DNA of 44,576 bases from a virus. Its lineage: Duplodnaviria > Caudoviricetes. Shown piece by piece: positions 6,687 through 24,959 of the stretch (within the stretch, counting starts at the first letter, position 1; every line of letters starts with the position of its first letter). Under the pieces are notes generated by a model that saw only the letters and a program-made list of their open reading frames with translations, made no database searches and was not told the origin of the DNA. The stretch lies in the IMG/VR virus record IMGVR_UViG_3300035037_000529, positions 1-44,576 of that record; one strand, given 5' to 3'. A program made the translations under genes and the position numbers.

Positions 6687-6851
6687 TTATTTCAGCTCAC
6701 CTTTTTTGAACTTTTTCCCACATTCCGGGCATTCGACTTCATTATCGAAAAACAGACTGCAGGGGACATCGGCCCCGCAGTGCGGGCACTTTACCATATC
6801 CGCTCCCATAGCGAAATCGTATCCCAGAAATTCATCAAATAAATCGTCCAC
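6687..6851 (-). CDS. Small zinc-ribbon protein (54 aa, not in the ORF track)
   Basis: My translation: MDDLFDEFLGYDFAMGADMVKCPHCGADVPCSLFFDNEVECPECGKKFKKGELK. GTG start overlaps the radC TAG. Two CPxC motifs. Confidence 0.75.
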   Translation of the reverse strand: MDDLFDEFLGYDFAMGADMVKCPHCGADVPCSLFFDNEVECPECGKKFKKGELK

Positions 6852-7549
6852 TATAACAACCCCTTTTTATTAAAGCTGAAATAGTCGTTGCCGCCGATGA
6901 TGATATGATCTAACAGGTTAATGTCAACGGTTTTAAGCGCGTCCTTAACAGATTTTGTCACCACACAATCTTCCTTTGATGGCATCAATGTGCCAGCAGG
7001 GTGATTATGCGCGATAATAACACCTACAGCATGATGATACAGAGAGCGTTCGACTATCTTCCTCGGATAAATTGCTGATCTATTAACAGTGCCTGTTTGA
7101 AGCCCTTCAATCGCTATAAGTTGGTTTCTGCTATTCAGAAAAAGAGTCTTAAATTCCTCATCTACACATCCCTTCAAAGATGCCTTCAGGTAGTCAAAAA
7201 CCAGCTCAGGCGATGAAAGTAAATCTTTGCTATGTAAATCTTTTTCCAAATAAAGAACAGCTATGTCCTTCATAAGTTTCAAAAATAAGCTCGTATGCTC
7301 AGAAACCCCGGACACAGATTCCAGATCTTTGCTGTCCGCATCTAAAACACCGTTGATTGTTTTAAACTTGGCCATTAATTCTTTAGCAATCGGTTTTGTG
7401 TCTTTCCGGGCGATAGCATATGAAAGAACTAACTCCAGTATTTCGTAATCCAGCCAGCCTTTTATTCCTGATTTTTTATATTTTTCTTTTATCCTTTGTC
7501 TATGGCCTATATAAGTTGGTCTCTGTGTTTTCACTATGGTAGTTCCCAT
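6851..7549 (-). CDS. radC: RadC-family (HhH + JAB/MPN) protein
   Basis: GHRQRIKEKY, DYEILELVL, HNHPAG...PSKED, LLDHIII. Confidence 0.92.
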   Translation of the reverse strand: MGTTIVKTQRPTYIGHRQRIKEKYKKSGIKGWLDYEILELVLSYAIARKDTKPIAKELMAKFKTINGVLDADSKDLESVSGVSEHTSLFLKLMKDIAVLYLEKDLHSKDLLSSPELVFDYLKASLKGCVDEEFKTLFLNSRNQLIAIEGLQTGTVNRSAIYPRKIVERSLYHHAVGVIIAHNHPAGTLMPSKEDCVVTKSVKDALKTVDINLLDHIIIGGNDYFSFNKKGLL

Positions 7550-7557
7550 ACTTTAAA

Positions 7558-8517
7558 TTACTTTCCAGATTTCTCATTCTCAGCTGCCGGTAATTTACCA
7601 ACGAGCATTCCTTGAAAATCCCGTTTCATAGCTTCCAAAAATTCGAAAAAAGCATCTTTAGTTTTTATTTCAACATCATAATTCTCATGAGCTCGAGTCG
7701 ATATTAACCAATCATCACCTTTCTCATTCAAAACTAACAGCCCATGGACATGAGCTCCATATTTTATTGTCAATCTTTTCACGGCTTTGGCCAGAGTTTC
7801 AGCAGACTTATATGCAGTTCCGTCTAGCGCACATAAAAATGTTCTTGGCGGTGGTGTAGAGTATATGGTTTTTTCTTTGACTATATATTTTTTGGATAGT
7901 GTCCCATGACGACGAAAAATATCCGATAAGTCTTGTTTATCATAGTAATCGCACGAATTCATTTGCAATACATCTTCTACATATGCACCCTCTTTTGAAA
8001 GACATTTTTCCTTTATTTCCGGCCATACATCCTCAATACAACATCCTGATGACAAACTATGCGATACTTCTTCTTTTACCTTATCCTGATCAATTATCGG
8101 ACAGGATACTACCTTTTGGAATGGGACCTTGCTCTCGGGAAATATTTTTCTCAATTGAGCAATCTTTTCTATATCACACTTCAACTTAGCCGTATTCAAT
8201 CGGGCAATGGTCACCTCCACAACCCCATAAACCGAACCACCCATAAAGAGTCCAGAACTGTCTCCCAAAAACATTGGGGCATTCATAAAATCATCAAACA
8301 CGATAATATCATGCTGGCGCGAAATCCGGTCAGTATTTACCACAAAGCCTGACAATAGATTATATCTCTGGGGAAGATGTTTTCTCAATAAACGCTTAAA
8401 AGCGCTTTCTGCCTCTGATCCTTTTACCGCTTTATGCTGTATCGCTAAGCGTATTACATTAATATCCAAAGCTAATTGTTTTTTATGGAGTTCTAATATA
8501 TCCTTTTTTGTAGTCAT
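7558..8517 (-). CDS. DUF6602-like (restriction-endonuclease-fold) protein
   Basis: KGSEAE..FKRLLRKHLP..Y....GFVV....SRQHDIIVFD...VYGVVEVT pattern recalled from this family. The expected E-x-K reads E-V-T here. Confidence 0.6.
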   Translation of the reverse strand: MTTKKDILELHKKQLALDINVIRLAIQHKAVKGSEAESAFKRLLRKHLPQRYNLLSGFVVNTDRISRQHDIIVFDDFMNAPMFLGDSSGLFMGGSVYGVVEVTIARLNTAKLKCDIEKIAQLRKIFPESKVPFQKVVSCPIIDQDKVKEEVSHSLSSGCCIEDVWPEIKEKCLSKEGAYVEDVLQMNSCDYYDKQDLSDIFRRHGTLSKKYIVKEKTIYSTPPPRTFLCALDGTAYKSAETLAKAVKRLTIKYGAHVHGLLVLNEKGDDWLISTRAHENYDVEIKTKDAFFEFLEAMKRDFQGMLVGKLPAAENEKSGK

Positions 8518-8520
8518 GCG

Positions 8521-10974
8521 TTATTTTCCCCAAACCTTTGCAATGCGGCCTTTGATTTTTTGCTCAAAACTTTCAACAACCCGTTTGTTGTTCTCTACCA
8601 TAGATAGTTCTTTTTGAATTGTTTGGATAACCTCTTTTTGAACCTCAATATTTGGTAAAGGTATCTTCATATGTCTTAAATTCCTAATAGGTAGTTGTGG
8701 TTGGGCGCTTCCAGATAGAATAGTTTTAATCTGGCTCTTTGCGTTTTCTGATTGAAAAAAATAAAATAAATATTCAGATATGATTTTTGTTTCATCCGGC
8801 CTAAATATGAGCATCCCGGAATTAATTCTTATATTATCGAACAGAACTTTATCATCAAATATTCCTGTATTACCTACCGTTCCACGTGTAGTCAAGACGA
8901 CGTCCCGCTTTTTTAATTTACCTTTTCTGAGTTTTTTATCTTTTTCCTCCGAAATAAACATAACATCATCAAAACAAAAGCCATCTGCAAGGACATTTTT
9001 TGTATTTAAAAACACACAATAGCCTTTTTCAAAAAACTCATTATGTTTAGGATAGTTGACACCACGATCACCATCTATGATTTCAGCCGGAGCGTCTCCT
9101 AACTCCATCACAGGCCATTCTGGATCAATATTAATATGAGGGCGATAATTTTCGACAACCTGCCGCGCACCTTCAATGATTTTTTGATAACTGTCCAGCT
9201 CAGCAATTATTTGCTCCTGAACTTCAATGGGCGGAAGGGGAATTTTGTAATTTTTAAGCATACCAAGTTTTATATAAGGCATTGTATTGCCAAGTTTCTG
9301 TTTTGACACAGTTTCCTTCAAAGTTGATTCTAGTACAAAAAATAGATATCTTGCCGTAGCACCCTTAAAATCAGAAAGAACATATGTTCTTTGATAAGCT
9401 TCAAATTTACCCTTGTAATACTGGACAGCGCCAACATCGCCATTCCCGGCAACTAAAAGGGCTTCTGTGTCAAAAGAATATTCATCGCTGAAGGTATGCT
9501 CCTTAGCGCATGTAAAAAACGGGTATTCCCCATTAGGATTTCCCTGATTAACGTCTTTCTTTCCCGTTTTTATTTCACAAATATCTCCCAAATCAACAAA
9601 ATCCCATTTTCCAGTATAAACAAGCGCCTCTTTGTATCTATCTCCACTCAAATTATAATCACCGCTTTCAGCAATTTTTTCTTTTTTAATTAATGTGGCA
9701 AATTTTGCTTCCTCAGCAGTAAAATCGATTTCTTTACCTCCACTTATGGAGTGCTTATACTTTTTTATTATGTCCAGAGCAAGTGGTAAATCGTTCTCTT
9801 TTATTTCACGACGCTGAGCGCCTAATCCATAGCCATCGTTGTTCACTTTTACAAATAGAATCCTGTCGGTTTTCTTAACCAGATTTTTGTCTAAAAGTAA
9901 TATAGAAGTTTTAACACCGGAATATGGATTAAAAACTCCCGCAGGCAATGACACAACAGCATAAAGCGAATGCTCAATCAACATTTTACGAAGCTTCCTG
10001 TAAGCAGTACCTGACTGAAAAATAATTCCTTCCGGTACGATAATACCCGCACGACCGTTTGGATTCAGATGTTCAGCCATGTAATCGACAAACAAGACCT
10101 CGGATCGTTTTGATTGGACACTAAATCGTTTATGAGGTTTTATGCCGCCTTTTGGACTCATAAACGGCGGATTAGCTAAAATTACATCAAAAGTTTCCTG
10201 CCACTTTTCTTCTGAGGTTAACGTATCGTATTCGTAGATTTTCGGATTCTGGAATCCATGCAAGTACATATTTGCTAAGGACAACCTGACCATATCCGGA
10301 GAAATGTCATACCCGGAAAAATTCGCAATAAGTCTTTTCCTTTGATCATGCGTTAAATGTATCCGGCCATCTTTTTTATTTTTCTCTAAGATATGTTTGT
10401 ATGAGGAAATAAGAAATCCGGCAGTGCCACAGGCCGGATCCAGTATTGTTTCGTGTTTAGAAGGGTCAACTACCTCAACCATGAAATCAATGATGTGCCT
10501 GGGAGTCCTAAATTGTCCGGCATCACCCTGTGAACCCATAACAGAAAGCAGATACTCAAAAGCGTCTCCAAGCTTTTCGCTATGGTCATATTCAAACTCG
10601 CCAATTGTTTTAAGGAAACTTTTGAGAGTTTCGGGGTCGCGATAGGGTAGGTAAGCATTTTTAAAAATATTGCGGAATAACTGCGGAATATTCGGATTCT
10701 GATTCATCCTCTGTATAGCTTCCCCATATAAACCAACCAATTCGTGGCCGCTTACGCGGGGATCAAAAATTTTACTCCAGGCGTATTTCACGTACTCCCC
10801 GGTAAAAAACTTTGGCTTGCCGCCTAATTCCTCAGCCTGTTTATCCATATCGTCCATGAACTTATATATGAGGGCTATGGTGATCTGTTCAACCTGAGTT
10901 TTTGGATCAGGGAGTTTCCCGACAAGTATATCCCTTGCCGTATCAATTAGTCTTTTCGTTCCATTCGTTAACAT
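8521..10974 (-). CDS. hsdM: Type I RM N6-adenine methyltransferase fused to specificity subunit (HsdM-HsdS fusion)
   Basis: GQFRTPRHI, DPACGTAGF and NPPF, followed by two TRD-like units each ending in IPLPxxExQ..I conserved helices. Confidence 0.9.
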   Translation of the reverse strand: MLTNGTKRLIDTARDILVGKLPDPKTQVEQITIALIYKFMDDMDKQAEELGGKPKFFTGEYVKYAWSKIFDPRVSGHELVGLYGEAIQRMNQNPNIPQLFRNIFKNAYLPYRDPETLKSFLKTIGEFEYDHSEKLGDAFEYLLSVMGSQGDAGQFRTPRHIIDFMVEVVDPSKHETILDPACGTAGFLISSYKHILEKNKKDGRIHLTHDQRKRLIANFSGYDISPDMVRLSLANMYLHGFQNPKIYEYDTLTSEEKWQETFDVILANPPFMSPKGGIKPHKRFSVQSKRSEVLFVDYMAEHLNPNGRAGIIVPEGIIFQSGTAYRKLRKMLIEHSLYAVVSLPAGVFNPYSGVKTSILLLDKNLVKKTDRILFVKVNNDGYGLGAQRREIKENDLPLALDIIKKYKHSISGGKEIDFTAEEAKFATLIKKEKIAESGDYNLSGDRYKEALVYTGKWDFVDLGDICEIKTGKKDVNQGNPNGEYPFFTCAKEHTFSDEYSFDTEALLVAGNGDVGAVQYYKGKFEAYQRTYVLSDFKGATARYLFFVLESTLKETVSKQKLGNTMPYIKLGMLKNYKIPLPPIEVQEQIIAELDSYQKIIEGARQVVENYRPHINIDPEWPVMELGDAPAEIIDGDRGVNYPKHNEFFEKGYCVFLNTKNVLADGFCFDDVMFISEEKDKKLRKGKLKKRDVVLTTRGTVGNTGIFDDKVLFDNIRINSGMLIFRPDETKIISEYLFYFFQSENAKSQIKTILSGSAQPQLPIRNLRHMKIPLPNIEVQKEVIQTIQKELSMVENNKRVVESFEQKIKGRIAKVWGK

Positions 10975-10991
10975 TCTTTAATCCTCCCCGC

Positions 10992-13517
10992 TTAAGCCAC
11001 AAAAGTATTTAATGTTACATAATCTTTGATATACTCGACAACCGGATCTTTCCAGCCGTCAAGCTCTTTCAAATCCTTCATCGTAAATCCGGGATTAGTT
11101 TCAAGCCTGCCGTATTCTTTAGAATCCAATATCTCCCTTAATTCCACATCTAAAATATACGCTTTCATAAATTGCCGTATGATATGAATAAACTTATTCT
11201 CAGGATGATAAAGCGAAATGAATTTTTCAATTTCTTCTTCAAGCAAATCATCCTTGGTCTTAAACTTTTTAATCCGTCCAAAAATCTTCTCCAGTATCTC
11301 CCTTAAGCTTAAGCGGCGGTCAAGTTTAACGGATTTGCGGAGTTTATCAAGGTTAAAATACTCCTCGGGCTTATCAAAAACTTCCCGCTTTATGTAGCTC
11401 TCAGCCTCCTCGAAATCTCCTTCATAAATCTTGTCTTTAACGTAATCATTGCTTTTGACAACATCTTCAAACTTCTCAAAAAATTTTCGATCAATTTTCA
11501 TACCTTCAAGTCCGATAGGTGTTTCGGCAAGCTCTTTTAGCGGGTCCAGCTTAGTGCTTTCATATTCATCGGACGGCGGTGGAGGCGGCGGAAACGGCCC
11601 GGGACCTCCTCCCGTTTCCGGAGGAAGTTTTATTACTTCGTCATAATTGAATTTCTCCTCGAAATATTCACAATTGGCAAAGAAATCAAAAAGCTTAAAG
11701 TGTTCTTTTTTAATAACATACTTTTCGATTTTACCCAGCTCGTTTTTTTCGGTGTAAACAAAATTATATTTTCTGGTTCCGCGGCCCTTCATCTGAATAA
11801 AATTTTGAGGAGAAAAAATCGGACGCATCAGACTTAAATTTAAGATATCTTCACAATCATAACCTGTTGTCATCATTCCTACTGTTACGCACACTCGTGT
11901 CTTACTTGAATTGTATCCTTCCTTAAAGGCAGTGTGGCCATTCAGGTTGTTGTTTGAAAAGTTTATCGTCATCTGTTGCGAGCCATCAATAGAAGATGTT
12001 ACCTGCACCGCAAAGTCTGAATTATATTTCCCCGGGTAAATCTTGTGCGCCAACTCATTGAGTATTTGTGTAACTTTTGAGGCGTGATTCTGACTTACGC
12101 AAAAAATGATGCTTTTGCCAACTTCACCTGTCAGTGGATCCTTCAGCGCTTTTTCCAGGAAGGTTCTACACAGTGTTATATTTGTCTTCTCAGAAAAGAA
12201 TTTCCGTTCAAAGTCCTTCTGGAAATATGTCTTTTCTTCCTCTTGTCCTTCTTCGTTTTCTATAAGAATAGAATAGCCCATCTCTGAAAGCAATTCTGTC
12301 GTTATGTCAGTTCTGGCATCAACAACAATCGGGTTCACAAGATAATTATCTTTAACTCCATCCAAAAGTGTATACCGGAAGGTCGGGTTACTTGACTCAC
12401 ACCCAAAGGTTTTATATGTATCGAGTAACTGACGCCTTTCTAATTTACGAGGGTCTCTTTCAGCAAGCTTCTTTTCATCAATCTTTTTCAAGTAATCCTT
12501 TGGGGTTGCTGTTAAGCCCAGCTTATACCCGACAAAATACTCAAAAACAGCCCGACTATTCCCACCAATAGACCTGTGCGCTTCATCTGAAATAACCAGA
12601 TCAAAATCAGTAGGTGAAAAGAGATCTTTATATTTATTATTAAACAAAAATGACTGGACAGTGGAAACCACAATTTCGGCTTTCTTCCAGTCGTCTCGGT
12701 TTTCTTTGTATATGACTGACTTATAATCGTTCTTAAGATATTTTACAAAATTCTTCCAGGCCTGATCCTCAAGTTCAAGCCGATCAACCAGAAACAGTAC
12801 ACGTTTGGCGTTCCCTGTCCTCAAAAATAACTTGATAACACCGGCGGCAACAAGTGTTTTACCTGTGCCAGTAGCCATTTCAAAAAGAAAACGATTTTTA
12901 TTTTCCTGCACAGCACCCTGTAATGATTGAATAGCGTTAAGTTGATAATCTCTCAAAAATTTAAGGTTATTGTCGCTGATGAAATCATCACGCCTGTTCT
13001 CATCAATCCAGTTAGGATCGCTTCTGTAATCCGGCTTTTGGGTAATTGCGATGTAATCTGAATCGATCTGTTCACGGATTAAAGATTCAGGATTAGGCTT
13101 GAAAGATTTCTTGTGTATCAAAGATTCATAGGCAGGAAAGGTAGTTATAATATCAGGGTTGCCTGTTTCTATATCCCAGAAATAATGAAGATTCCCATTT
13201 GATAAGATTACAAATCTAACGTTAAGGCTTTTAGCATATTTTCGCGCCTGCTCCTTACCATCTAAAGGGTTCTTTTCTTCTTTTTTTGCTTCTAAGACTA
13301 CAAAAGGGAAACCCTTATCATCCTGAAGGATGTAATCAGTAAAACCATCTTTTGTCTTTTCGAAATCTTCACCAAGTTCATTGAGATCCTGTTCCGTAAT
13401 CTTGACATTTGTTTCTAAACAAATATTGGCGGGTCCTTCATCAGTATCAAAAAACCGCCATCCGGCTTCTTCAAGATATTTATTTATGCGGATACGTGCT
13501 TTAGCTTCTTTTGACAT
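10992..13517 (-). CDS. hsdR: Type I restriction endonuclease subunit R
   Basis: TDY...VLEAKK nuclease motif, MATGTGKT (Walker A), DEAH, GLTATP, QMKGRGTR. Confidence 0.93.
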   Translation of the reverse strand: MSKEAKARIRINKYLEEAGWRFFDTDEGPANICLETNVKITEQDLNELGEDFEKTKDGFTDYILQDDKGFPFVVLEAKKEEKNPLDGKEQARKYAKSLNVRFVILSNGNLHYFWDIETGNPDIITTFPAYESLIHKKSFKPNPESLIREQIDSDYIAITQKPDYRSDPNWIDENRRDDFISDNNLKFLRDYQLNAIQSLQGAVQENKNRFLFEMATGTGKTLVAAGVIKLFLRTGNAKRVLFLVDRLELEDQAWKNFVKYLKNDYKSVIYKENRDDWKKAEIVVSTVQSFLFNNKYKDLFSPTDFDLVISDEAHRSIGGNSRAVFEYFVGYKLGLTATPKDYLKKIDEKKLAERDPRKLERRQLLDTYKTFGCESSNPTFRYTLLDGVKDNYLVNPIVVDARTDITTELLSEMGYSILIENEEGQEEEKTYFQKDFERKFFSEKTNITLCRTFLEKALKDPLTGEVGKSIIFCVSQNHASKVTQILNELAHKIYPGKYNSDFAVQVTSSIDGSQQMTINFSNNNLNGHTAFKEGYNSSKTRVCVTVGMMTTGYDCEDILNLSLMRPIFSPQNFIQMKGRGTRKYNFVYTEKNELGKIEKYVIKKEHFKLFDFFANCEYFEEKFNYDEVIKLPPETGGGPGPFPPPPPPSDEYESTKLDPLKELAETPIGLEGMKIDRKFFEKFEDVVKSNDYVKDKIYEGDFEEAESYIKREVFDKPEEYFNLDKLRKSVKLDRRLSLREILEKIFGRIKKFKTKDDLLEEEIEKFISLYHPENKFIHIIRQFMKAYILDVELREILDSKEYGRLETNPGFTMKDLKELDGWKDPVVEYIKDYVTLNTFVA

Positions 13518-15642: not shown

Positions 15643-16203
15643 TTAAGATTGTCCGCCGCGGACCGGGCGTACATAACATTGATCTCCCCAGATTATTCCA
15701 TATGTGGTTAAATACCCGTCATAGGCATATACTGCCCAAGCTCCGTCAGTCCACGGAGCGCAAATGGTCGATGACCACCAAACGCCCCACTGGTCTGGAC
15801 ACGGGGCGAAATAGGAAGTGTCCTGAGCGGGGTCGTATCTTCCATAATCATTAATCGATGCTATTTCAAAGATATTTGGCAAACGCCAATCGCTATAACC
15901 GGCATAGTTCAACATTTCACATGCATCAAGTGCCATGTACCATTCCATTGGGGATCCAAAACCGGCGGCCGCTGGATCTTTAACCCAAATCAACCCGGTA
16001 GCCATGTCGGTCACGGTTCCGTTACCGTTATCAACAAATCTTTGCCCCCAGTTAATCGGGTGGCCGATTTGATAATATCCGTCATCATACGGATACCAAG
16101 ACATATTCTGACCGGTCTTTGGCAACCCTCCGTCGGTCTGAATTTCGGTGATCCTGTTTACAATCCTGCTTGATTTCCTGTGTTTGAGATGCAATTCCTG
16201 CAT
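15643..16203 (-). CDS. DUF1566 (Lcl C-terminal, C-type-lectin-fold) protein; candidate receptor-binding/adhesin
   Basis: LPKTGQ...DDG...RFVDNGNGTVTD..TGLIW, GYSDWRLPNI.E, WSST, YVRPVRGG. Start re-called at 16203 after AAGGAGG. Confidence 0.88.
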   Translation of the reverse strand: MQELHLKHRKSSRIVNRITEIQTDGGLPKTGQNMSWYPYDDGYYQIGHPINWGQRFVDNGNGTVTDMATGLIWVKDPAAAGFGSPMEWYMALDACEMLNYAGYSDWRLPNIFEIASINDYGRYDPAQDTSYFAPCPDQWGVWWSSTICAPWTDGAWAVYAYDGYLTTYGIIWGDQCYVRPVRGGQS

Positions 16204-16216
16204 AGTTAATCCCTCC

Positions 16217-16507
16217 TTAAATTTCATAAGTTAGCGTAAGCTTGCCAGCGTCACCACCGGCTTTAATAACCCTGAAGTCACCGATGTGGTAGATCGATGG
16301 AAGCTCTACAATATCACCGTCTTCCAATAACGCTCCCGAATCAGCAGTAGGATTCTGCCCATTTACGAAATACCTCATGTCTCCGCCTTCGGCGTGAATG
16401 ATAGCATAGACCGCGGAAGGCCCGTCAGGCGGGTTATACACAGACGGTGTTAACTGCTTAACTCCGCCGTCAACTACAATTTCTTCATGAGCCAATATTT
16501 TTGACAT
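16217..16507 (-). CDS. Hypothetical beta-rich virion-like protein
   Basis: 96-aa ORF with good RBS, packed tightly between the rSAM and DUF1566 genes. Confidence 0.65.
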   Translation of the reverse strand: MSKILAHEEIVVDGGVKQLTPSVYNPPDGPSAVYAIIHAEGGDMRYFVNGQNPTADSGALLEDGDIVELPSIYHIGDFRVIKAGGDAGKLTLTYEI

Positions 16508-16510: not shown

Positions 16511-17863
16511 TCAAACCTCCTTCTTTTTGATTATTACCGGACTGCTTTCAACCATCCTTTTCTCAGACGGCGCCATTTCGCGCTTAACTTCATTCCAGCC
16601 CCTCAGGCAATAATTAACGTTACGGTTAGCCGCGTAAAACTTTTCTAAATCCTCAGCTCTCATTTTTTCATGCGCACAGGGGTAAAGAGCCGGATTAAGG
16701 TCCTCAAGGTCTATGTGCTTATACTTCTCATAATCCGGCGTCCCCGGAATAGGCGTATAAGGCAAAGTTACGGCTTCAGCGCCGTAACTTTTTATGAGAT
16801 CGATCGTTTCCCCGATATCTTTGGTAGTCTGATTAGGCGCGCCGATAATAAGAAAAGACCTCAGGCGTTTAAAATGTTTCTTCGCGATCTTCATAGCCTG
16901 TTCCCAGTGAGCGACAAAGCAGTGACGTCTCCATTCTTTGATGATGATATCACTGGCGCTTTCAATAGGTATATTCACTGACCGAAAACCTGCTTCAACC
17001 ATCTTTGCGGCTATCTCATCGGTTAAAAGACGGGCTTCGACACCGCCGTATGAGAAGAGTTCAATATTCAACTTCTCCCGGATAACCTTATCAAGTATGA
17101 TCTCAAAGTGTTTTTTGTAACCATAAAGGATATTCGCGTCCAGGAAGATGAACTTTGTAATACCCATGGACTTGTAGTATTTAAGCTCGTTTACCACTTC
17201 ATCAGGATTGGTATTGACCTTGGTACAACCTTCTACGATATGTACTGCGCAGTAAGAGCAGTTATTCGGGCATCCAACTGACGTCCCCAGGAATATCCTC
17301 TCAGGCATGTTGTCGCCGAAAAGGTCGACATCAATCTTGATAAAATTATCGCTGACCCTTTTTTCTTTCTTCGTCATCACCTCATCAGCGCCTGAAGCCC
17401 TGGCGTGTTCCGGACAGAGAATAGCGTAGAGGCCCCCGACTTTGACCGGCACTTTAGGCATTATCCTTTTACATTCAGCCACGATCTCATAAACAGCCCG
17501 CCACAGGAAGGTGAAAGTATTGCCGATAAATATCTTGTCCGGCTGAAATTCGTCCAGTTTTTTTGCCAGCTCAGAAAGCGGCAAACCCAGCCGGTGGAAT
17601 TCACGACAGAGTTTCTCATTATCAAAGTTGCCGCACTTTTTATACCCGACAAACTGAGAAGCCAGAATTCCCTTGAAATACATACCGTTCTCTTTAAACT
17701 CCATATACTTTCTGGGGCGGTAAAGAGGGTACATATTAAAAAGTTCGACTGTGTGGCCTTCACGGCGCAGTTTTGTAGCGACCTTATAAATACCGACAGG
17801 GGAATTGCGGTACATCATGGTTATAGTCGTATATTCATACGGTACGATACACAAATATCTCAT
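16511..17863 (-). CDS. Cobalamin-binding radical SAM enzyme (class B methyltransferase-like)
   Basis: N-terminal PVGIYKVATKLRREGHTVE and VKVGGLYA B12-binding Rossmann features. TSVGCPNNCSYC CxxxCxxC motif. FIFLDANI, IPIESAS. Confidence 0.88.
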   Translation of the reverse strand: MRYLCIVPYEYTTITMMYRNSPVGIYKVATKLRREGHTVELFNMYPLYRPRKYMEFKENGMYFKGILASQFVGYKKCGNFDNEKLCREFHRLGLPLSELAKKLDEFQPDKIFIGNTFTFLWRAVYEIVAECKRIMPKVPVKVGGLYAILCPEHARASGADEVMTKKEKRVSDNFIKIDVDLFGDNMPERIFLGTSVGCPNNCSYCAVHIVEGCTKVNTNPDEVVNELKYYKSMGITKFIFLDANILYGYKKHFEIILDKVIREKLNIELFSYGGVEARLLTDEIAAKMVEAGFRSVNIPIESASDIIIKEWRRHCFVAHWEQAMKIAKKHFKRLRSFLIIGAPNQTTKDIGETIDLIKSYGAEAVTLPYTPIPGTPDYEKYKHIDLEDLNPALYPCAHEKMRAEDLEKFYAANRNVNYCLRGWNEVKREMAPSEKRMVESSPVIIKKKEV

Positions 17864-19152
17864 TCTTTATCCTTTATCTTTGAAGCAAGCAGGACCAATC
17901 CCGACTTTACTTCTTTCATTTCCTTTACAAGGCGTATCATACACCGGGCAATGACATCCAGCTTGTCTTCCACAAGTTCGGCCGGTTCATCGTTTGTAAC
18001 CTTATACATAACGCCTTTTCCCTCAAGATCAGCCATCTCGCAACTTTTAAGTTTTAATTTTCCTTCCATCAGTAAGCTCCTTATTATCGGCCGCAAGGCA
18101 CGTGATATCTTTTCGTTCATTTCACAATAACCATTCTCCGGTACAGCCGCGGGATCCTTATTCAGCGCCATATTCGTGGCAAAACACCTGTTGCAGGAAA
18201 ACACCTTACAATTAAGGCACTTGACCGCTTTGGTTCTCATTTCCGATATCTTCCTGCATGCCTCGCTGGTCTCGTCTATGCCTTTCCACACATCACCCAT
18301 ACAGAAGTCGTACTTCTTTGAATAGGCGACAAACCTGTGGCAGGGATATATTTTGCCTTCAGTAGAAACGCCGATCAGAAACTCCCCGGCCCGGCAACCT
18401 CTCTGCCGATTAAACGAATTATTGACGATCCGCTCCAGGGAATTGTGCAGGTAATTAAAATACTGGTTTCGGCCCTCTGAGTAATACAGCTCAATACATT
18501 TCTTAAGCTCCTCAACGAAAATGTTGATCACTTCATCGTTCCAGTCACCCTCAACAATAGGCGTAAGATTTGTAACCGGCACCCCGAAGGAAAGCATTGC
18601 TTCAAAGTCCTTTGAAAGCGTGCTTATATTGTCCGGCGTAACAGTCATGCGCACACCAACACTCGGGAATATATCCCTGATTTTCTTTATGTTGTCAGCA
18701 ATAACCCTGTAACTGCCATCATCGTTGGCAAACACCCTGTTGGCGTTGTGCGTTTCCTCACAGCCGTCCAGGGATACCTGAAAGTGCCAGTTGAAATTGT
18801 TGTATGGCTTTAAGCTCCTGAAATACTGAATCATCTCATTGGTCAGGATAGTGCCGTTAGAGAGGATATGAACCCCGGCCCTGAAGTTAAGCTTGTCACA
18901 GATAGTGCGCAGATAATCTATCCCGGCTTTAACCGTCGGAAAGTTGAGCAGGGGTTCGCCTCCGAAAAAGGTAAATGTAAGATTTTCGAAAGGCCGCGTA
19001 AACATTTCCTTTTCATAGTGGCCAACAAGCCAGTCTATGGTCTGGCGCATGGTCGCAGGCGACATGTCTCCTGTACGGTTTTCCTCGTAACAGTATTTGC
19101 ATTTAAGATTGCATTTATTGGTAACAAAAATATAAGCTGATTTTGGTTTCAT
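17860..19152 (-). CDS. Radical SAM/SPASM enzyme (anSME / Cys-rich peptide maturase-like)
   Basis: TNKCNLKCKYC, FFGGEPLL, VSLDG. SPASM Cys set GCRAG...GKIYPC...CLNC...C..C...YC. Confidence 0.93.
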   Translation of the reverse strand: MKPKSAYIFVTNKCNLKCKYCYEENRTGDMSPATMRQTIDWLVGHYEKEMFTRPFENLTFTFFGGEPLLNFPTVKAGIDYLRTICDKLNFRAGVHILSNGTILTNEMIQYFRSLKPYNNFNWHFQVSLDGCEETHNANRVFANDDGSYRVIADNIKKIRDIFPSVGVRMTVTPDNISTLSKDFEAMLSFGVPVTNLTPIVEGDWNDEVINIFVEELKKCIELYYSEGRNQYFNYLHNSLERIVNNSFNRQRGCRAGEFLIGVSTEGKIYPCHRFVAYSKKYDFCMGDVWKGIDETSEACRKISEMRTKAVKCLNCKVFSCNRCFATNMALNKDPAAVPENGYCEMNEKISRALRPIIRSLLMEGKLKLKSCEMADLEGKGVMYKVTNDEPAELVEDKLDVIARCMIRLVKEMKEVKSGLVLLASKIKDKE

Positions 19153-19195
19153 CCCGTTAGAAATCTCCTTTTCCCGTTAATATTTCTAACGGGAT
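19151..19195. promoter_or_regulatory. 14-bp inverted repeat enclosing the rSAM/SPASM RBS and overlapping its start codon
   Basis: ATCCCGTTAGAAAT (19151-19164) pairs with ATTTCTAACGGGAT (19182-19195). A third TCCCGTTA copy lies at 19172-19179. Confidence 0.6.
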
Positions 19196-19200
19196 TCATT

Positions 19201-19764
19201 TTAATCTCCACAATCACATTCACTGCAACACTGCTCCTGACAGGTGCAAGTACAGGTGCAGGTACACGTACAGGTACATTCACATTCACAACAAACTATA
19301 TGCGTATGAGCCGCCAGGCTTTCAAGGTGGCTTCTCAACTGTTCATGAGCCGATGCTTTAACCCATGTAACCAGCGCGGTAACCGGATCATCCTCGAAAA
19401 CAAATCCCGGGGCATACACATCCGAATTTGCGCTATAAGCCGGAACATAGTGGTTATGCCCGTCAAAGGCTTTGATAAAGCCTATAACTTCGTTAGTGTG
19501 CTGAGCCTTAGGCGGTGTCGTATCGACAACAAGCTGGGCGTTTGACTCTGCCCAGGCAACAGCGACATCCGGTGACTCAGCATTGGAATTATTACCGTTG
19601 AAAACATGATAGTGGCCGTCAAGAGCTTCCAGAGCCGCTCTCAACTCCACAATGTGCGTCTTTTTAACCGGCGTCACATCCTGAACCAGTGGATCGTCTG
19701 TCCATCCCACGGGAATTGGATTGCCGCCTGAATCTTTTGGGGGCCCGCTTGCATAATTTCCCAT
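19201..19764 (-). CDS. Repeat-containing tail-associated protein with Cys-rich C-terminus; putative radical SAM substrate
   Basis: Three ~51-aa repeats (W/F...TxxKxxH..E/QL......HxH), then CCECECTCTCTCTCTCTCQEQCCSECDCGD. No Cys in residues 1-157. Confidence 0.8.
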   Translation of the reverse strand: MGNYASGPPKDSGGNPIPVGWTDDPLVQDVTPVKKTHIVELRAALEALDGHYHVFNGNNSNAESPDVAVAWAESNAQLVVDTTPPKAQHTNEVIGFIKAFDGHNHYVPAYSANSDVYAPGFVFEDDPVTALVTWVKASAHEQLRSHLESLAAHTHIVCCECECTCTCTCTCTCTCQEQCCSECDCGD

Positions 19765-19775: not shown

Positions 19776-20348
19776 TTAAGCATATACCGCTCTTGGCGGA
19801 GCGTTCTCAAACCTTGAATTCGCGTTTGAATATCTTATCGCCTGGCCGTCCTGAACCGAATCAAGATGCACAGGTATAGTTTCATAAAAACCTTTGGCGC
19901 CAACCGGACCTGTGCCGTAATACTTATTGTTTCCCGGTGAAGCCGCACCGCCTTCCAGTTTGGCTGAAGCCACACCGCCGTCTTTTAATTCCAGTTTGTC
20001 AGTTCCGGATATCTGAAATACAGTAGCTTCAATTAAACCGTCTAAATACTCCGGTGTAGTGTCACTGACATCAGCCTTCAACCTGTTAGGTGAATTAGCT
20101 GTAGGAAGAACCCCGGCCGCGGACGGCACATTGGCAAGACCCGTAAGGGCCGAACCATTAACCTTATTGGCAGTTGCTATTTGCGCGAGTTTTGTATCCT
20201 CAATGCCAGCGTTGGGCGCTACCTTGTCGTTGGTAACCTGCAGGTTGGGATCCGTGCCAAGTTCTATAGCGTCCCAGTTAGCCCGGCAGGCTGGCGGAAA
20301 GTTAATCAAAAGCATATCATTTTCAGGTTTTGTTTTGTCCCAGGCCAT
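19776..20348 (-). CDS. Tail fibre-like protein
   Basis: VTNDKVA / IEDTKLA / VASAKL fibre-type repeats. Located downstream of the tail-tip gene. Confidence 0.6.
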   Translation of the reverse strand: MAWDKTKPENDMLLINFPPACRANWDAIELGTDPNLQVTNDKVAPNAGIEDTKLAQIATANKVNGSALTGLANVPSAAGVLPTANSPNRLKADVSDTTPEYLDGLIEATVFQISGTDKLELKDGGVASAKLEGGAASPGNNKYYGTGPVGAKGFYETIPVHLDSVQDGQAIRYSNANSRFENAPPRAVYA

Positions 20349-20814: not shown

Positions 20815-23800
20815 CTATATTCCGTGGCTATGCCAGTCAAAGGATCCAATTTGTGCTACTCCCTGAGCGTTATAAAGTTTGACTGTAAAGCCTGTTATTG
20901 TTTTATCGGTAAACTGGGCGTAAATCCCGGCCCCGCCGGTTATCTCAATATGCACACTCGGCTCTTCATGGAATATTTCCGTAAAAAAGACTTCTTTGCC
21001 GTCATCTGCAACCGTAACTTCATCACTACCGTGTTCGTCGATATCCGGAAGATCCCCGAAATAACTCAACGTAGAACAGGTAATGTAATCACCTAAATTC
21101 TCTCTGGCCAGGGCCATTTCAATCTGAAAGAACCTGCAGTAATAATCTCCCGGCTGGTAATCCATCCAGTCGCTCCAGATGACATTGTCTTCAGATGTTT
21201 TTATCCTGAAGCTTGCGGCCCTCAGCGTTTCCTGGCCGGTGAACCTGTAAGTCGTGCTGTCATTAAAGCGTGACACAGCATCGCTGTTAAAACGCCTGCC
21301 GGTAGATATAGAAGCGATCACATCAATGCCCACATAGACAGTGGACACATACCCGAAATCCCTTACAGGCGCGGTATATGTCCCGGAGAACTCTCCGTCG
21401 GAAATAACCAGAGTCCCGCCGATCTTCTCAAGATTCAAAAGCGTCCCAAGCCAGTCCGGATGTTCCTGATATTCAGCGATAATATTGCGAAAGGGAATGG
21501 TGCTTACAGTCACAATCGCTTCCCTGGCGTTTTCCGAATAATTTCCTGAAGTATCAATGGCCTTGATCCAATAACTCTGCTCAACACCCATCTTCACATC
21601 CGTGGTCAGATATGAAGTCCCCTGCTGGAAAGTGATAAACTCGCCACTGTCCCAGTCCTCACCGCGCCTGATCTCATAACCCCAGACATCAACATCACTT
21701 ATCGCTGTCCATCCGAAGTAAACCATGTCCCGGTTTTGGTTAACCAGGAATGACGTTATGTCAGAAGGCGGCGCGGCTTTCCCGACAATAGTGATTTCCT
21801 GTTCTGGTGAAGCATCAAACGCGCCTTCTTCACCCATATCAGTGATTGATACAACCTTAACTTTATATGTGTAATCGGAAATTATGTCCCCGAGCATCTG
21901 AAAGTGAGTGCCGGTAGTTTCACCACGAAGGCCCCAGCTGGCGCCGCCGTTATCACTCAAATAGATCCTCGCTCTGGCGTAAGTTTTTACATAATATGAT
22001 GTCCCTTCAGGCTTATCGAACCAGACATCTATAGCGTTCTCGATAGTACCATCGGTTTTTTTAACAAGCGATTCTGTCAGGTTCATATTTTCGACATTGG
22101 GGACTTCTGCTGAAAGCGAAGAATAGTTGCTGTCAGGCAGGATAATGTCCGAATCGTCGTACACATTCTCGTTATATTCCAGCGCCTGTATCTGGCACTC
22201 ATTGGTTCCCTGGCGCTGGATCGATACTACGCGGAAATCTTTCTTGATCTTGTTTGTTTCACCGATAGCGTATACATCATAGGCCTGAGGCGCATTGCTG
22301 AAAGCGTTACACTCAACTTCCGTATAATTGCCAACAGGTGAAATAATGCTTTTCTCTTCAATAGTGTCATCGGAAAACCTGACCTGTATCCTGTAAGACT
22401 TTCCGTCTTCAATCACAAAAGTACGGTCCAGCTTGATCAGGGTTGTGGTAGAGCCTGACTGCACACGGCCAGAGAAACCCCATTGAGGCACATCATGAGA
22501 TATCGAAATAACATCTCCGGCCTGGCAGGCGATAGCATCAATCCCGGCCCTGAAAGCAATAGTGCGGTTTATATATTTGGCAACTTTAAGCGCGTATCTA
22601 CCGGCCCGAATAGCATAGCTTAGACGGGTAGTGAAAAGCCTGATCTGACTCTTACGCATAGGATCTCCCGCGGCCAGGGCATCCTCATCGATGTAGGAAA
22701 CCGTCTCCTGACGGTAACCTTTATCTTTATCCATAAACTGAATCTCGATTACATTGGGGATTTCCTTAAGAGTCTTCCAGCTCTGGGCGAAACTGCCCTC
22801 AATAATATTGCCCATGCCAAAGAGCTGAGTTGGATTGGCTTCTTTATCTATTTTGAAGGAAACCCCGCCAGCGGAATAAACGGGCATAGCATTGAATGTC
22901 GCGCATAACTGAATAAGCACATCAAGCGCTTTTGAATTCGAATCAATAACAACATCCATCCTGAAGCGTTTCTCAAACCCGCCTTTGCCGTCGGCGACTT
23001 TTTCCTCGCAATATCTCGACATCTCAAGCAGTGTCGCGTCATCCAGATTGTCCGATGAGATAAATTCACCAAGCCCGTAACGTTTGCTGATTAAAAAGTC
23101 CCTGAGGCACCATACAGGATTGGCCGAGTATTTACCGGTATAAGTCGAACCGTCCCATGAAAGAAGTGTATCGTCTGAAAGTAGCCTGTAATCAGAGCCG
23201 TCCCAGTAATAGTCTTCCCAGTCAACCGGTGTTCCGGCATTACGGATATCAGGAACCGACACAAGCTTGCCTTTAACAACGCATGTAATATTCGGCATAG
23301 AGCCTGAAAGCTGATCCGTAGCCAAAAGTTTAATTCCCAAAAGCGCGGTATTCGGATATCTCAAATCATCAGTTTTTATCTCATCTACCTGAAACCACAT
23401 AAGATCGCCTTGTTTTAACGGGTCAAGTGATGAATCGTCGGATGTCCTGGTAAGGCGGATATCGTATTGTCCGGGCGTCAAACCTTCCTTGCGAAAGATC
23501 CTGCGGACAGTTGACCTGGATTTTGCCGATATAGTAGTCTCACCAAGGTCGATGTAATCCGGATCCGTGTGCAGTTTATATTCAACACGATAGGTCACAC
23601 TCCAGCTTGATATACCGCCTCCCCCGGACTGCTGGTACAGGCCGCTGTTAAGCCTTAAATGAACCTCGAGCACTTCAACATCCGAATCAACCGTTGTGTA
23701 AACATGCGGGTTATCTTTTGTCAGGTTTACATTGACCGGATAAAGGTTGTGCAGGTCCTCGAAGTTGGAAATCAATGACTGATCATTGGCTCCGTGCCTT

Positions 23801-24438
23801 TCCGTAATATTTATGCCGCTGAAATTGCCGATAGGATTATTGTTGATTTCGATATCGTCAATGGACTCGATTATGCCTTCACAAAGAGCGAGAAGAACAT
23901 TGAGGTAGTTCTTGTCGCCGTCATCCCATACATACTGGTTTACTATATTGCCGCCGATTTTATGCTCACCATATACAACGGCAACCGGCACGCCTACTTC
24001 CTGAATTGTCTGCACGCCGTCCCAGCCGTATGTGGGTGATCCTTCATCAAGCCCGCCTGTAGGCCCGGCTCCGAGATTAAAGTCAGGCATTCTCGGTTGG
24101 TTCATATACTGATATATTGAATACCCCATGGACAGCACAAAGAAGGTAAAAAGGAACGGGTGAGCTACGGCTACCGCCCAGACTGCCGATACAATGGCGG
24201 ATACAACAGCCACAACCGGTGCTTTGACCTCAGGGATAATCGTAATCTCGTCATCCTGTTCGATGCGGGCGTCCAGGTCTTTAATCCTTTTGCCGGTAAC
24301 GATAACCCGTTTATCCTTATAATCAAAGCCGGAAACATTGAGATGACTACGCAGAGTCTTATCCCGTGAATACGAAACCTCTGCGATTTCGGCTTCATTT
24401 ACTTTGAAAGGATTTTTTATGTTTCGTATTACTACCAT
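20815..24438 (-). CDS. Central tail tip / host-specificity protein (lambda J-like), with N-terminal gpI-like segment fused
   Basis: VPVAVVYGEHKIGG, YPNTALLG, SANPVWCL.DFL..KRYGLG and FN3-like C-terminal domains. The N-terminal ~70 aa resemble the ubiquitin-like gpI domain. Start re-called at ATG 24438. Confidence 0.88.
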   Translation of the reverse strand: MVVIRNIKNPFKVNEAEIAEVSYSRDKTLRSHLNVSGFDYKDKRVIVTGKRIKDLDARIEQDDEITIIPEVKAPVVAVVSAIVSAVWAVAVAHPFLFTFFVLSMGYSIYQYMNQPRMPDFNLGAGPTGGLDEGSPTYGWDGVQTIQEVGVPVAVVYGEHKIGGNIVNQYVWDDGDKNYLNVLLALCEGIIESIDDIEINNNPIGNFSGINITERHGANDQSLISNFEDLHNLYPVNVNLTKDNPHVYTTVDSDVEVLEVHLRLNSGLYQQSGGGGISSWSVTYRVEYKLHTDPDYIDLGETTISAKSRSTVRRIFRKEGLTPGQYDIRLTRTSDDSSLDPLKQGDLMWFQVDEIKTDDLRYPNTALLGIKLLATDQLSGSMPNITCVVKGKLVSVPDIRNAGTPVDWEDYYWDGSDYRLLSDDTLLSWDGSTYTGKYSANPVWCLRDFLISKRYGLGEFISSDNLDDATLLEMSRYCEEKVADGKGGFEKRFRMDVVIDSNSKALDVLIQLCATFNAMPVYSAGGVSFKIDKEANPTQLFGMGNIIEGSFAQSWKTLKEIPNVIEIQFMDKDKGYRQETVSYIDEDALAAGDPMRKSQIRLFTTRLSYAIRAGRYALKVAKYINRTIAFRAGIDAIACQAGDVISISHDVPQWGFSGRVQSGSTTTLIKLDRTFVIEDGKSYRIQVRFSDDTIEEKSIISPVGNYTEVECNAFSNAPQAYDVYAIGETNKIKKDFRVVSIQRQGTNECQIQALEYNENVYDDSDIILPDSNYSSLSAEVPNVENMNLTESLVKKTDGTIENAIDVWFDKPEGTSYYVKTYARARIYLSDNGGASWGLRGETTGTHFQMLGDIISDYTYKVKVVSITDMGEEGAFDASPEQEITIVGKAAPPSDITSFLVNQNRDMVYFGWTAISDVDVWGYEIRRGEDWDSGEFITFQQGTSYLTTDVKMGVEQSYWIKAIDTSGNYSENAREAIVTVSTIPFRNIIAEYQEHPDWLGTLLNLEKIGGTLVISDGEFSGTYTAPVRDFGYVSTVYVGIDVIASISTGRRFNSDAVSRFNDSTTYRFTGQETLRAASFRIKTSEDNVIWSDWMDYQPGDYYCRFFQIEMALARENLGDYITCSTLSYFGDLPDIDEHGSDEVTVADDGKEVFFTEIFHEEPSVHIEITGGAGIYAQFTDKTITGFTVKLYNAQGVAQIGSFDWHSHGI

Positions 24439-24959
24439 GTCCTGTTCCTTAATCTGTAAAACCCTTCGATCTTTGGTTTCCAAGCCGCGCCATCAAGCCT
24501 TGAAACCACAACACCCTGCCTGGGGCAGTGAATAAACTTCCTGTCAGCAAAGACAATCCCTGCGTGGTTGGCCACGCCTCGTGAATTTAAAAACAACACG
24601 CCATCTAAAACCTGAGGGTCTGTAACTTTCTCCCAGTCATTCTCATAATTTTCCCGAAAATAATCTTTGCCCCGCAGGCCCCAGATTTTTCCATACTCCA
24701 GATCTTCAACGTCAAACAACTCAAACCCCAGATCGATATACACAAGCTTCAAAAACCCCCAGCAGTCAAGCCCCTCCAGCGTCCTGCCCCTGTGCCGATA
24801 GGGAATGCCGAGATATTTATCCGTGATCAGCTTCTCTACATGATGTATATTCGTCTGGTCGGCACCGAAGGAAAAGCTCCGTACCTCTGATAATTGTTCA
24901 GTTGTTTGCATCTCTGCTTTGTCTTGTCGCATGTCAGTTCTACTCCCATATATCCGCAT
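24432..24959 (-). CDS. NlpC/P60 tail assembly protein (lambda K-like, no JAB domain)
   Basis: YLGIPY...GLDCWG...HAGI....FIH. The true start is uncertain; the domain begins near 24830. Confidence 0.85.
   Translation of the reverse strand: MRIYGSRTDMRQDKAEMQTTEQLSEVRSFSFGADQTNIHHVEKLITDKYLGIPYRHRGRTLEGLDCWGFLKLVYIDLGFELFDVEDLEYGKIWGLRGKDYFRENYENDWEKVTDPQVLDGVLFLNSRGVANHAGIVFADRKFIHCPRQGVVVSRLDGAAWKPKIEGFYRLRNRTW

What the first reader, a model, noticed from the sequence alone, without database searches (positions are those of the whole stretch)
16511..19764. RiPP-like radical SAM modification cassette embedded in the phage tail-fibre operon
Seen: three contiguous co-oriented genes lie between a tail-fibre-like gene and a DUF1566 lectin-fold gene. 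They are a 187-aa protein ending in 14 Cys in 30 residues, a radical SAM/SPASM enzyme, and a B12-binding radical SAM enzyme coupled to it by an ATGA overlap. Established: rSAM/SPASM enzymes next to Cys-rich ORFs install thioether crosslinks (sactipeptides, ranthipeptides) or formylglycine (anSME), and class B rSAMs methylate unactivated carbons. Unlike typical RiPP clusters, this one shows no exporter, no leader protease and no PqqD/RRE that I can see, and the 'precursor' looks like a virion protein. Inference: the phage chemically matures a tail appendage by crosslinking and/or methylation to build a rigid, protease-resistant or receptor-specific tip. I know of no characterised example.
Basis: partly seen in the sequence, partly recalled or inferred. 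Interest (0 to 1): 0.93.

Follow-up and report, generated by a model that had tools for sequence, protein, structure and literature searches.

The report
Radical-SAM-matured phage fibre cap
A phage whose close relatives sit in Omnitrophota genomes encodes, right after a fibre-like tail gene, a small protein predicted to cap the end of the trimeric fibre, and its tail of alternating cysteines is likely cross-linked, and possibly methylated, by the two radical SAM enzymes encoded next to it, which would be natural-product-style chemistry on a virus particle.

Summary
Observation confirmed with small corrections. The 187-aa protein, a PapB/CteB-like 7-Cys SPASM enzyme without an RRE, and a B12-type radical SAM enzyme travel together in lambda-like, myo-like and short-tail-like phages. 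SPASM lies beside 35 of 36 informative cap proteins and the B12 enzyme beside 31 of 31; 22 of these belong to one clade. Conversely, 30 of 31 clusters of phage SPASM relatives have a Cys-rich neighbour (background 0 in 243 kb). New here: the N-domain is a confidently folded threefold repeat with three invariant HxH motifs. A complex prediction places one copy on three fibre C-termini through a conserved AVYA end (0.90 versus best control 0.14; this mark was reached by 116 of 157 solved and 2 of 215 mismatched pairs). It is likely a monomeric fibre cap, arranged like gp38 or PAAR but unrelated to them, carrying the enzyme substrate. Thioether cross-linking and methylation are inferred, not shown. 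A 'receptor-specific tip' is doubtful: the cap is conserved and the DUF1566 gene is the variable one. Ten literature searches found no description. This scan reported the same family four times before on other DNA. Ca. Velamenicoccus archaeovorus carries the cassette.

The parts
20815..24483 (-). Lambda gpJ-like central tail fibre/tip attachment protein (context)
   Evidence: phrog_31 E 1.5e-162; PF24801, PF13550
20323..20806 (-). Two small ORFs (74 aa, and about 90-102 aa with CxxC...HxxC) conserved in the window's clade; function unknown
   Evidence: No family hit; conserved in close relatives
19776..20348 (-). 190-aa fibre-like protein, predicted trimer whose C-terminus holds the cap
   Evidence: Position after gpJ; Atlas leads to T4 gp9/10 N-domain 0.90 and Phage_fiber_rpt 0.88 (leads only); complex model
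19779..19793 (-). C-terminal RAVYA motif (residues 186-190), predicted docking tag for the cap
   Evidence: A and Y invariant in 22 of 22 aligned upstream-protein ends, down to 18-31% identity; forms the interface in the model
19294..19764 (-). Cap protein N-domain (residues 1-157): three W/F-xDDP...HxxELR-helix-HxH repeats, a single-chain threefold fold
   Evidence: AF2 pLDDT 89-98 per block over 1-160; H51/H53, H103/H105 and H153/H155 invariant in 30 of 30 sequences; no clear fold match
19201..19293 (-). (Cys-X)n tail, 14 Cys in 30 residues, inferred enzyme substrate
   Evidence: Sequence; low pLDDT of about 50; X = T 50%, E 22%, Q 10%, D 6% of 232 sites in 27 family members; pN 0
19153..19200 (-). 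48-bp spacer with a 12-bp inverted repeat around the SPASM ribosome-binding site and a 16-codon mini-ORF whose TGA overlaps the SPASM ATG
   Evidence: seen in the window, L001 and L018 among the 11 junctions printed
17860..19152 (-). Radical SAM/SPASM enzyme, CteB/PapB-like, 7 auxiliary Cys (C253, C271, C312, C315, C320, C323, C343), no N-terminal RRE, about 80-aa C-terminal extension
16511..17863 (-). B12-binding-type (class B-like) radical SAM enzyme, coupled by an ATGA overlap
16217..16507 (-). 96-aa ORF of no known family, found with the cassette in the lambda-like relatives
15643..16227 (-). DUF1566/Lcl_C protein (likely start near 16203), the most variable gene of the module and candidate receptor binder
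   Evidence: PF07603 E 1e-25; 68% identity in L001 and 56% in L015, where cap and enzymes keep 96-99%

Best explanation
The 187-aa protein is a three-repeat, histidine-rich domain predicted to sit as a single cap on the C-terminal ends of the trimeric 190-aa fibre, and its (Cys-X)n tail is likely converted by the adjacent SPASM enzyme into a ladder of thioether cross-links and then possibly C-methylated by the B12 enzyme, which would give the virion a rigid, reduction-proof tip. Shown: gene order and linkage, the three invariant HxH motifs, the enzyme families and purifying selection. Predicted by models: the fold and the 3:1 docking. Inferred: that the six His bind one metal ion on the pseudo-threefold axis; that the open iron of auxiliary cluster I binds a tail Cys and links it to a side-chain carbon of Thr, Glu, Gln or Asp at an odd offset (even offsets are Cys); that the folded domain replaces a leader/RRE pair; and that the modified protein stays uncleaved in the virion. 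My odds: cap on the fibre about 0.8; tail is the SPASM substrate about 0.85; thioether chemistry, given that, about 0.7; B12 enzyme methylates the same protein about 0.5.
For: Linkage: of 41 distinct cap proteins (54 rows), 36 have at least 250 nt downstream; 35 of these have the SPASM gene beside them and the other (L045) is followed directly by the B12 gene. The B12 gene is present in 31 of 31 informative cases. This holds at 33-46% SPASM identity and in myo-like (L069 = L142, baseplate wedge) and short-tail-like (L041) phages. Reverse test: 62 of 71 distant viral SPASM loci, 29 of 31 clusters by script and 30 of 31 with L132, have a same-strand gene with at least 8 Cys in 30 aa; background 0 in 243 kb. 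The B12 enzyme occurs in only 2 of those 71 loci, the two with this HxH cap. Tail-end type needs 1 change on both enzyme trees and 3 on the N-domain tree. Enzyme type: nearest solved relative is CteB; the 7-Cys layout matches CrpC, which cross-links a protein (PMC13692751). Thr, Glu and Asp, the acceptors reported for CteB and QhpD, fill 78% of X sites. Complex: scores 0.90, 0.90 and 0.82 versus best control 0.14 (mark reached by 116 of 157 solved complexes and 2 of 215 mismatched pairs); runs agree in at least 97% of contacts; partner pLDDT at least 95; fibre residues 184 and 186-190 of all three copies touch the three equivalent cap stretches 26-38, 78-90 and 128-140. Precedents: monomeric gp38 and PAAR caps on trimers, and HxH iron sites in fibres.
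Against: There are no chemical, proteomic or expression data. 22 of the 36 informative loci form one clade (at least 83% N-domain identity), so the linkage rests on about six independent lineages. Tree support for tail-enzyme tracking is modest (88 on the unfinished quick SPASM tree, 45 on the B12 tree, long branches) and kin share labels. Neither enzyme reaches any curated family cut-off, PF02310 is below its cut-off, and class B-like enzymes include non-methylases (BchE, AprD4 and ArsL are among the hits). There is no RRE, unlike CteB, PapB, QhpD and CrpC. The complex job is unlike the tool's calibration (three copies, own alignments), and the tool notes that 7 of 44 blindly picked neighbours passed. 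In the two myo-like loci the gene just upstream of the cap does not end in the tag. L045 has no SPASM gene between cap and B12 gene (2-kb contig). The period-2 Cys spacing fits no characterised substrate that I read about.
Confidence: 0.55

Rival explanations
1. Same cap and same substrate, different chemistry: the SPASM enzyme epimerises every second residue (or otherwise oxidises the tail) and the B12 enzyme adds beta-methyls, giving a D/L-alternating beta-helix needle in the manner of polytheonamide.
For: Strict period 2 (232 of 305 Cys-Cys gaps are 2); a B12 enzyme is tied to this family alone; PoyC and PoyD appear as reference titles in PMC8326336; the rest is recalled.
Against: Best families and nearest structure are thioether synthases; distant SPASM relatives go with other Cys spacings such as CxxxC, so the Cys itself seems to be what matters; epimerisation would not need Cys.
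Confidence: 0.14
2. The cap is a virion part whose tail binds metals or Fe-S clusters or forms disulfides unmodified, and the enzymes act on another late protein (96-aa ORF, DUF1566 protein, fibre) or build a cofactor.
For: Cys ladders bind metals (general knowledge); the 96-aa and DUF1566 genes travel with the lambda-like cassettes; L070 adds an aldo-keto reductase, a DegT-like protein and two more radical SAM enzymes.
Against: The Cys-rich gene is the constant neighbour of the SPASM family; the 96-aa and DUF1566 genes were not seen among the ORFs listed for the two myo-like loci; enzyme clades follow the tail-end type.
Confidence: 0.13
3. A true RiPP: the N-domain is a large leader and the modified tail is cut off and released to act on the host or on competitors.
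For: RiPP-type enzymes; tail predicted flexible.
Against: No protease or exporter in the scanned ORFs; six invariant His and a conserved fibre-docking surface are not leader-like; position in the late tail module. L079, the one SPASM cluster with a protease and an ABC transporter, is the one without a Cys-rich gene by my threshold.
Confidence: 0.07
4. The enzymes are auxiliary metabolic or DNA-modifying genes placed here by chance.
For: Phage radical SAM genes are commonly read as metabolic genes (PMC13452462, passages); the B12 enzyme's top NCBIfam hits act on small molecules, lipids or tRNA.
Against: Linkage in both directions across tail types; translational coupling; the nearest non-cassette B12 relatives (33-37%) include fusions to an HxsC-like radical SAM domain.
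Confidence: 0.05

Closest known systems
CteB/CteA (SCIFF, thermocellin; PDB 5WGG) and PapB/PapA ranthipeptide systems
   Same: Nearest solved structure (E 2.6e-25) and best NCBIfam family; 7-Cys SPASM with an open site; Cys-Thr gamma-thioether reported for CteA (PMC8326336, passages).
   Different: No RRE, no leader peptide, no exporter; the substrate is a folded virion-type protein with period-2 Cys; a B12 enzyme is added; score below the family cut-off.
CrpC/CrpA of Methanococcus voltae (PMC13692751) and QhpD/QhpC
   Same: Radical SAM/SPASM enzymes that put ranthionine links into a protein rather than a peptide; CrpA also has a folded N-domain that helps binding and a Cys-rich C-terminus; same 3+4 auxiliary Cys layout.
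   Different: Cellular, RRE-bearing, Cys every five or so residues in CrpA; the paper's main text has 0 occurrences of 'phage' or 'viral' (supplements not read).
TIGR04115 CXXX-repeat maturase system
   Same: RRE-less radical SAM/SPASM family hit (147.6 bits); distant phage relatives carry CxxxC proteins and TIGR04116-like small genes.
   Different: Below cut-off (350); spacing here is CxC; no TIGR04114, TIGR04116 or TIGR04119 hit in the window.
T-even gp38 adhesin on gp37 (PDB 6F45) and PAAR/gp5.4 spike tips
   Same: A monomer with local threefold symmetry capping a trimer; PAAR tips carry a His/Cys metal site; HxH iron sites occur in fibres (PMC6851490 and PMC12407873, passages).
   Different: No sequence or fold match; here the fibre's C-terminal pentapeptide is predicted to bind the cap; three HxH motifs lie in one chain; no enzymatic maturation is mentioned for gp38 or PAAR in the passages read.

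Membership tests
Ranthipeptide synthase (CteB/PapB/QhpD/CrpC type) | CxxxCxxC radical SAM domain plus SPASM with 7 Cys leaving an open AuxI site | tested here: met
   C14/C18/C21 and C253, C271, C312, C315, C320, C323, C343 invariant in 9 of 9 sequences; aligned to CteB
Ranthipeptide synthase (CteB/PapB/QhpD/CrpC type) | N-terminal or stand-alone RRE | tested here: inconclusive
   Fused RRE absent (alignment to CteB starts at its residue 98); no PqqD hit, but four small neighbours have no family
Ranthipeptide synthase (CteB/PapB/QhpD/CrpC type) | Curated family score (NF047865 PapB, TIGR03974 SCIFF, TIGR04115) | tested here: not met
   200.7/340, 125.4/425 and 147.6/350 bits
Ranthipeptide synthase (CteB/PapB/QhpD/CrpC type) | Forms S-to-non-alpha-carbon thioethers | not testable with these tools
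   Needs MS and desulfurisation
RiPP (released peptide) | Leader-core precursor with protease and exporter | tested here: not met
   No protease or exporter hit near the cassette; N-domain is a conserved folded domain
anSME (formylglycine-forming) | 8 auxiliary Cys, and a sulfatase with a CxPxR site nearby (recalled) | tested here: not met
   7 Cys; E 4.6e-7 versus 2.6e-25 for CteB; TIGR03942 61/349 bits; no sulfatase hit
Class B (cobalamin-dependent) radical SAM methylase | N-terminal B12-binding domain followed by a radical SAM domain | tested here: inconclusive
   PF04055 met; PF02310 28.3 bits against a 32.1 cut-off, E 1.6e-6; most homologues carry a precomputed PF02310 hit
Class B (cobalamin-dependent) radical SAM methylase | Binds cobalamin and transfers a methyl group | not testable with these tools
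   Needs UV-vis and CD3-SAM assays
gp38 adhesin / PAAR tip | Sequence or fold homology | tested here: inconclusive
   No PHROG, Pfam or PDB hit; best VIA Z 6.8 (rmsd 3.5, 123 aligned) to a designed helical filament, within background
gp38 adhesin / PAAR tip | Monomer with threefold pseudo-symmetry capping a trimer | tested here: met
   By prediction only: 0.90 versus best control 0.14; mark reached by 116 of 157 solved and 2 of 215 mismatched pairs

The most novel reading that the evidence does not exclude
Phages of all three tail types build a new kind of fibre tip: a single-chain pseudo-trimer with a six-histidine metal site clips onto the fibre's last five residues and presents a peptide needle that phage-encoded radical SAM enzymes turn into a poly-thioether, methylated rod. 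This would be the first RiPP-type maturation of a virion protein and a leader-free, RRE-free, processive cross-linking enzyme for period-2 cysteine ladders.
Probability: 0.4. Interest if true: 0.9.

Novelty: new variant of a known kind. Interest (0 to 1): 0.74.

Why it matters
Radical SAM thioether links in proteins are known from few cases (QhpC and CrpA in the paper read), and none on a virus particle in my ten searches. If right, many phage radical SAM genes now read as metabolic genes are virion-assembly enzymes, and phage tips can carry enzyme-made, redox-proof cross-links. The enzyme would handle a dense Cys ladder without an RRE, which bears on how radical SAM enzymes recognise protein substrates and on peptide macrocyclisation. 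The five-residue tag and cap would be a new trimer-to-monomer adaptor. The question is directly testable in E. coli, and a cultured Omnitrophota member carries the cassette on its chromosome.

Tried and rejected
The first AF2 run with 15 sequences failed (pLDDT 33.8); the 85-sequence alignment worked. Foldseek against PDB and BFVD gave no match at E 0.001 or better; VIA-wide best Z was 6.8, within background; the PDB sequence search with the N-domain found nothing below E 0.6. tblastn of the N-domain against 50,697 GenBank phage records gave no match. The promoter/terminator scan was at chance level (14 versus 17.6; 11 versus 9.4). Long B12 homologues P0182-P0185 were checked as possible SPASM-B12 fusions: they have no match to this SPASM, and the second domain of P0182 and P0184 is HxsC-like. 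Six distant viral B12 radical SAM loci (L055-L060, 21-26% identity) have no Cys-rich neighbour and were treated as outside the family. Microsatellite artefact rejected (mixed Thr and Cys codons, pN 0). anSME chemistry rejected on Cys count. The careful SPASM tree did not finish and the quick tree is quoted; the B12 tree used 16 chosen rows. Literature: ten searches; no listing described the system. Haft and Basu 2011 is not held, so what it says about phage CXXX systems is unchecked. PMC12801897 was seen only as a listing. No supplements were read; Supplemental Data set 1 of PMC13692751 lists radical-SAM-associated Cys-rich proteins and could include phage ones. No enzyme-substrate complex was modelled.
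Full report
Setting. The window is a whole virus record of 44,576 bases, 98% complete by CheckV. It has terminase, lambda-type portal, capsid, tape measure, gpM/gpL/gpK-like genes and gpJ on the minus strand, a serine recombinase at the right end and a restriction-type island at the left. The host is inferred to be Omnitrophota: a 68% relative of the 187-aa protein is named from Ca. Omnitrophica, and 4 of 5 GTDB loci are Omnitrophota, including the chromosome of Ca. Velamenicoccus archaeovorus LiM, where fibre, cap and both enzyme frames are intact. A preprint calls that organism a cultured episymbiont in anaerobic enrichments (10.64898/2026.06.07.730766, passages). The 10 runs holding half or more of the sampled words are labelled oil field metagenome; one may be the source and none was laid.

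Observation. The three genes, the 14 Cys in 30 residues and the ATGA overlap are as described. A 96-aa ORF separates the B12 gene from the DUF1566 gene, and 48 bp separate the Cys gene from SPASM. The four genes tested are under purifying selection (dN/dS 0.025-0.057 in the 6 of 16 comparisons with unsaturated synonymous sites), and the tail shows no amino-acid change at pS up to 0.61.

The 187-aa protein. With 29 relatives at 30-84% identity it resolves into three repeats of about 51 residues. Each begins with W/F-xDDP, continues into an HxxELR-type helix and ends in HxH; all six His are invariant in 30 of 30 sequences. The bare triple repeat is widespread outside this family: of 133 further hits listed (681 at E 0.001 or better, best 150 shown), none has three HxH motifs and 5 have a Cys-dense stretch. 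Adding 55 of them gave a confident AlphaFold2 model (mean pLDDT 88.9, pTM 0.83; helices 35-48, 87-100, 137-152; tail about 50) with no clear structural match. HxH motifs from three chains bind iron in spikes and fibres (PMC12407873, passages). Here three such motifs lie in one chain, so I infer a single-chain mimic of a trimer; I could not inspect the His geometry in the model.

Docking on the fibre. The gene upstream ends in A-V/K-Y-A/S in 22 of 22 aligned ends, although these proteins range from 142 to 346 aa and from 18 to 95% identity over the aligned end. I folded three copies of the last 60 residues with one N-domain. Scores were 0.90, 0.90 and 0.82 against a best control of 0.14; the mark was reached by 116 of 157 solved complexes and 2 of 215 mismatched pairs; runs agree in at least 97% of contacts and partner pLDDT is at least 95. 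The same fibre residues (184, 186-190) of all three copies form the interface with three equivalent cap stretches (26-38, 78-90, 128-140). The job is unlike the calibration and shows model confidence, not binding. The arrangement parallels gp38 on gp37 and PAAR on spikes without detectable homology. In the two myo-like loci the upstream gene lacks the tag; L069 has a downstream ORF ending YYAP, untested.

Linkage. Searches gave 53 loci plus the window, 41 distinct cap proteins. Five have under 250 nt downstream and were dropped. Of 36, 35 have the SPASM gene beside the cap (upstream in L142, 1.5 kb away in L141) and L045 has the B12 gene directly after the cap. Five more end before the B12 gene could show; 31 of the remaining 31 have it. 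Twenty-two of the 36 are one clade, so about six lineages carry the argument; they include lambda-like, baseplate-bearing and short-tail-like phages. In the reverse test the SPASM alignment confirmed 404 viral stretches and the best 80 were kept. Nine close family members were set aside. Of 71 loci in 31 clusters, 62 loci and 29 clusters have a same-strand gene with at least 8 Cys in 30 residues; L132/L134 was lost to my filter but shows such a gene, giving 30 of 31. Background was 0 in 243 kb from 17 loci once cap genes were excluded. In 21 of 31 clusters at least one of the 1-6 neighbours tested hit a tail or virion family. The B12 enzyme appears in only 2 of the 71 loci, the two with this cap. 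This set comes from a viral collection, so it does not measure cellular contexts.

Enzymes follow the tail. Tails end either with a CC-containing block or as a pure Cx run. That label needs 3 changes on the N-domain tree and 1 on each enzyme tree. The clearest cases: L032 has an N-domain 76% identical to the window's but a pure-Cx tail and a SPASM in the other clade (support 100); L045 has a 56% N-domain but a CC-type tail and a B12 enzyme inside the window's clade (97). Overall support is modest (88 and 45) and long branches are involved, so this is suggestive only.

Chemistry. The SPASM enzyme's nearest solved relative is CteB (E 2.6e-25; anSME 4.6e-7), and it has seven invariant auxiliary Cys. 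That is the layout described for CrpC, which leaves an open iron for a substrate Cys and installs ranthionine links in a 29-kDa protein (PMC13692751; abstract, two sections and passages read). It lacks the RRE. The residues between Cys are Thr 50%, Glu 22%, Gln 10% and Asp 6% (232 sites, 27 proteins). Thr is the CteB acceptor (reported at +5 in vitro and at +2 in E. coli; PMC8326336, passages) and Glu/Asp are the QhpD and PapB acceptors. In this ladder only odd offsets reach a non-Cys residue. The B12 enzyme matches no named family (best 94.7/600 bits). Its nearest relatives outside the cassette include fusions to an HxsC-like domain. Methylation of the tail is therefore a guess from domain architecture and linkage.

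Function of the tip. The cap is the most conserved gene of the module between clades (71% in L011, where gpJ keeps 27% and the enzymes 31-32%), whereas the DUF1566 gene is the least conserved among near-identical phages (68% in L001, 56% in L015). Host specificity therefore more likely lies in the DUF1566 protein, and the modified tail more likely has a fixed mechanical or scaffolding role.

Comparison and novelty. It works like a ranthionine synthase acting on a protein but fails the curated cut-offs and lacks the RRE, so I do not file it in PapB, SCIFF or TIGR04115. Ten searches of the held library found no account of radical SAM maturation of a virion protein; most subscription papers and Haft and Basu 2011 are not held. 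This scan noted the same family four times on other DNA and the wider theme seven times; those are not independent support. A word search of earlier notes for the pseudo-threefold cap found none, though only short extracts are visible. Verdict: real, conserved and undescribed in what I could search; known chemistry likely put to a new use; interest 0.74.

Noticed in passing
window 19153-19200: A 48-bp insert between cap and SPASM holds a 12-bp inverted repeat around the ribosome-binding site (fold -22.1 kcal/mol, no shuffle control) and a 16-codon mini-ORF overlapping the SPASM start; seen in the window, L001 and L018, while six other close relatives printed have stop and start 1 nt apart. It may lower enzyme relative to cap synthesis.
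   Followed up: partly
P0030-P0162: The triple W/F-TDDP...IKAxHIxELR repeat without HxH is common at the C-terminus of large surface-type proteins (cohesin or Ig-like domains) and inserted just before the Rhs core in P0034, P0046, P0066 and P0089. It has no Pfam or NCBIfam name in the proteins scanned and may be a general trimer- or peptide-binding module.
   Followed up: partly
P0042, P0097, P0136; L078:7091-7888: HxH-less triple-repeat proteins that also carry Cys-rich tails; L078 sits beside a SPASM gene, suggesting the repeat was coupled to Cys tails more than once.
   Followed up: partly
L011:10944-12309 (also L033, L035-L037): Cassettes of the second clade add two zinc-ribbon ORFs and a 186-aa ORF that looks ADP-ribosyltransferase-like by eye only; no family hit.
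   Followed up: partly
L070:3832-11359: A larger cassette: cap, aldo-keto reductase, DegT-like protein, SPASM, 235-aa ORF, B12 enzyme and two more radical SAM/SPASM enzymes, hinting at further tailoring.
   Followed up: partly
L072-L140: Many distant phage SPASM genes have a roughly 100-aa neighbour, two of them weakly like TIGR04116, and CxxxC- or CNCN-type Cys-rich proteins beside tail-fibre genes; the ESM Atlas lists a viral cluster with 19% PF27846 tSAM_targ_Cxxx_rpt.
   Followed up: partly
window 15643-16227: The DUF1566/Lcl_C gene diverges far faster than its neighbours; a diversity-generating retroelement would explain this, but no reverse transcriptase hit appeared among the 51 ORFs scanned.
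   Followed up: no
window 567-13517: A lower-GC (mostly 36-42%) defence-like island: restriction helicase, N6 methylase fused to a specificity domain, DUF6602, RadC, Vsr, C5 methylase, HATPase and an HNH-like gene.
   Followed up: no
L002:8001-8603: The cap's stop codon is lost or shifted and the frame runs 13 residues into the SPASM gene region, with one tail Cys replaced by Ser; variant or assembly error.
   Followed up: no
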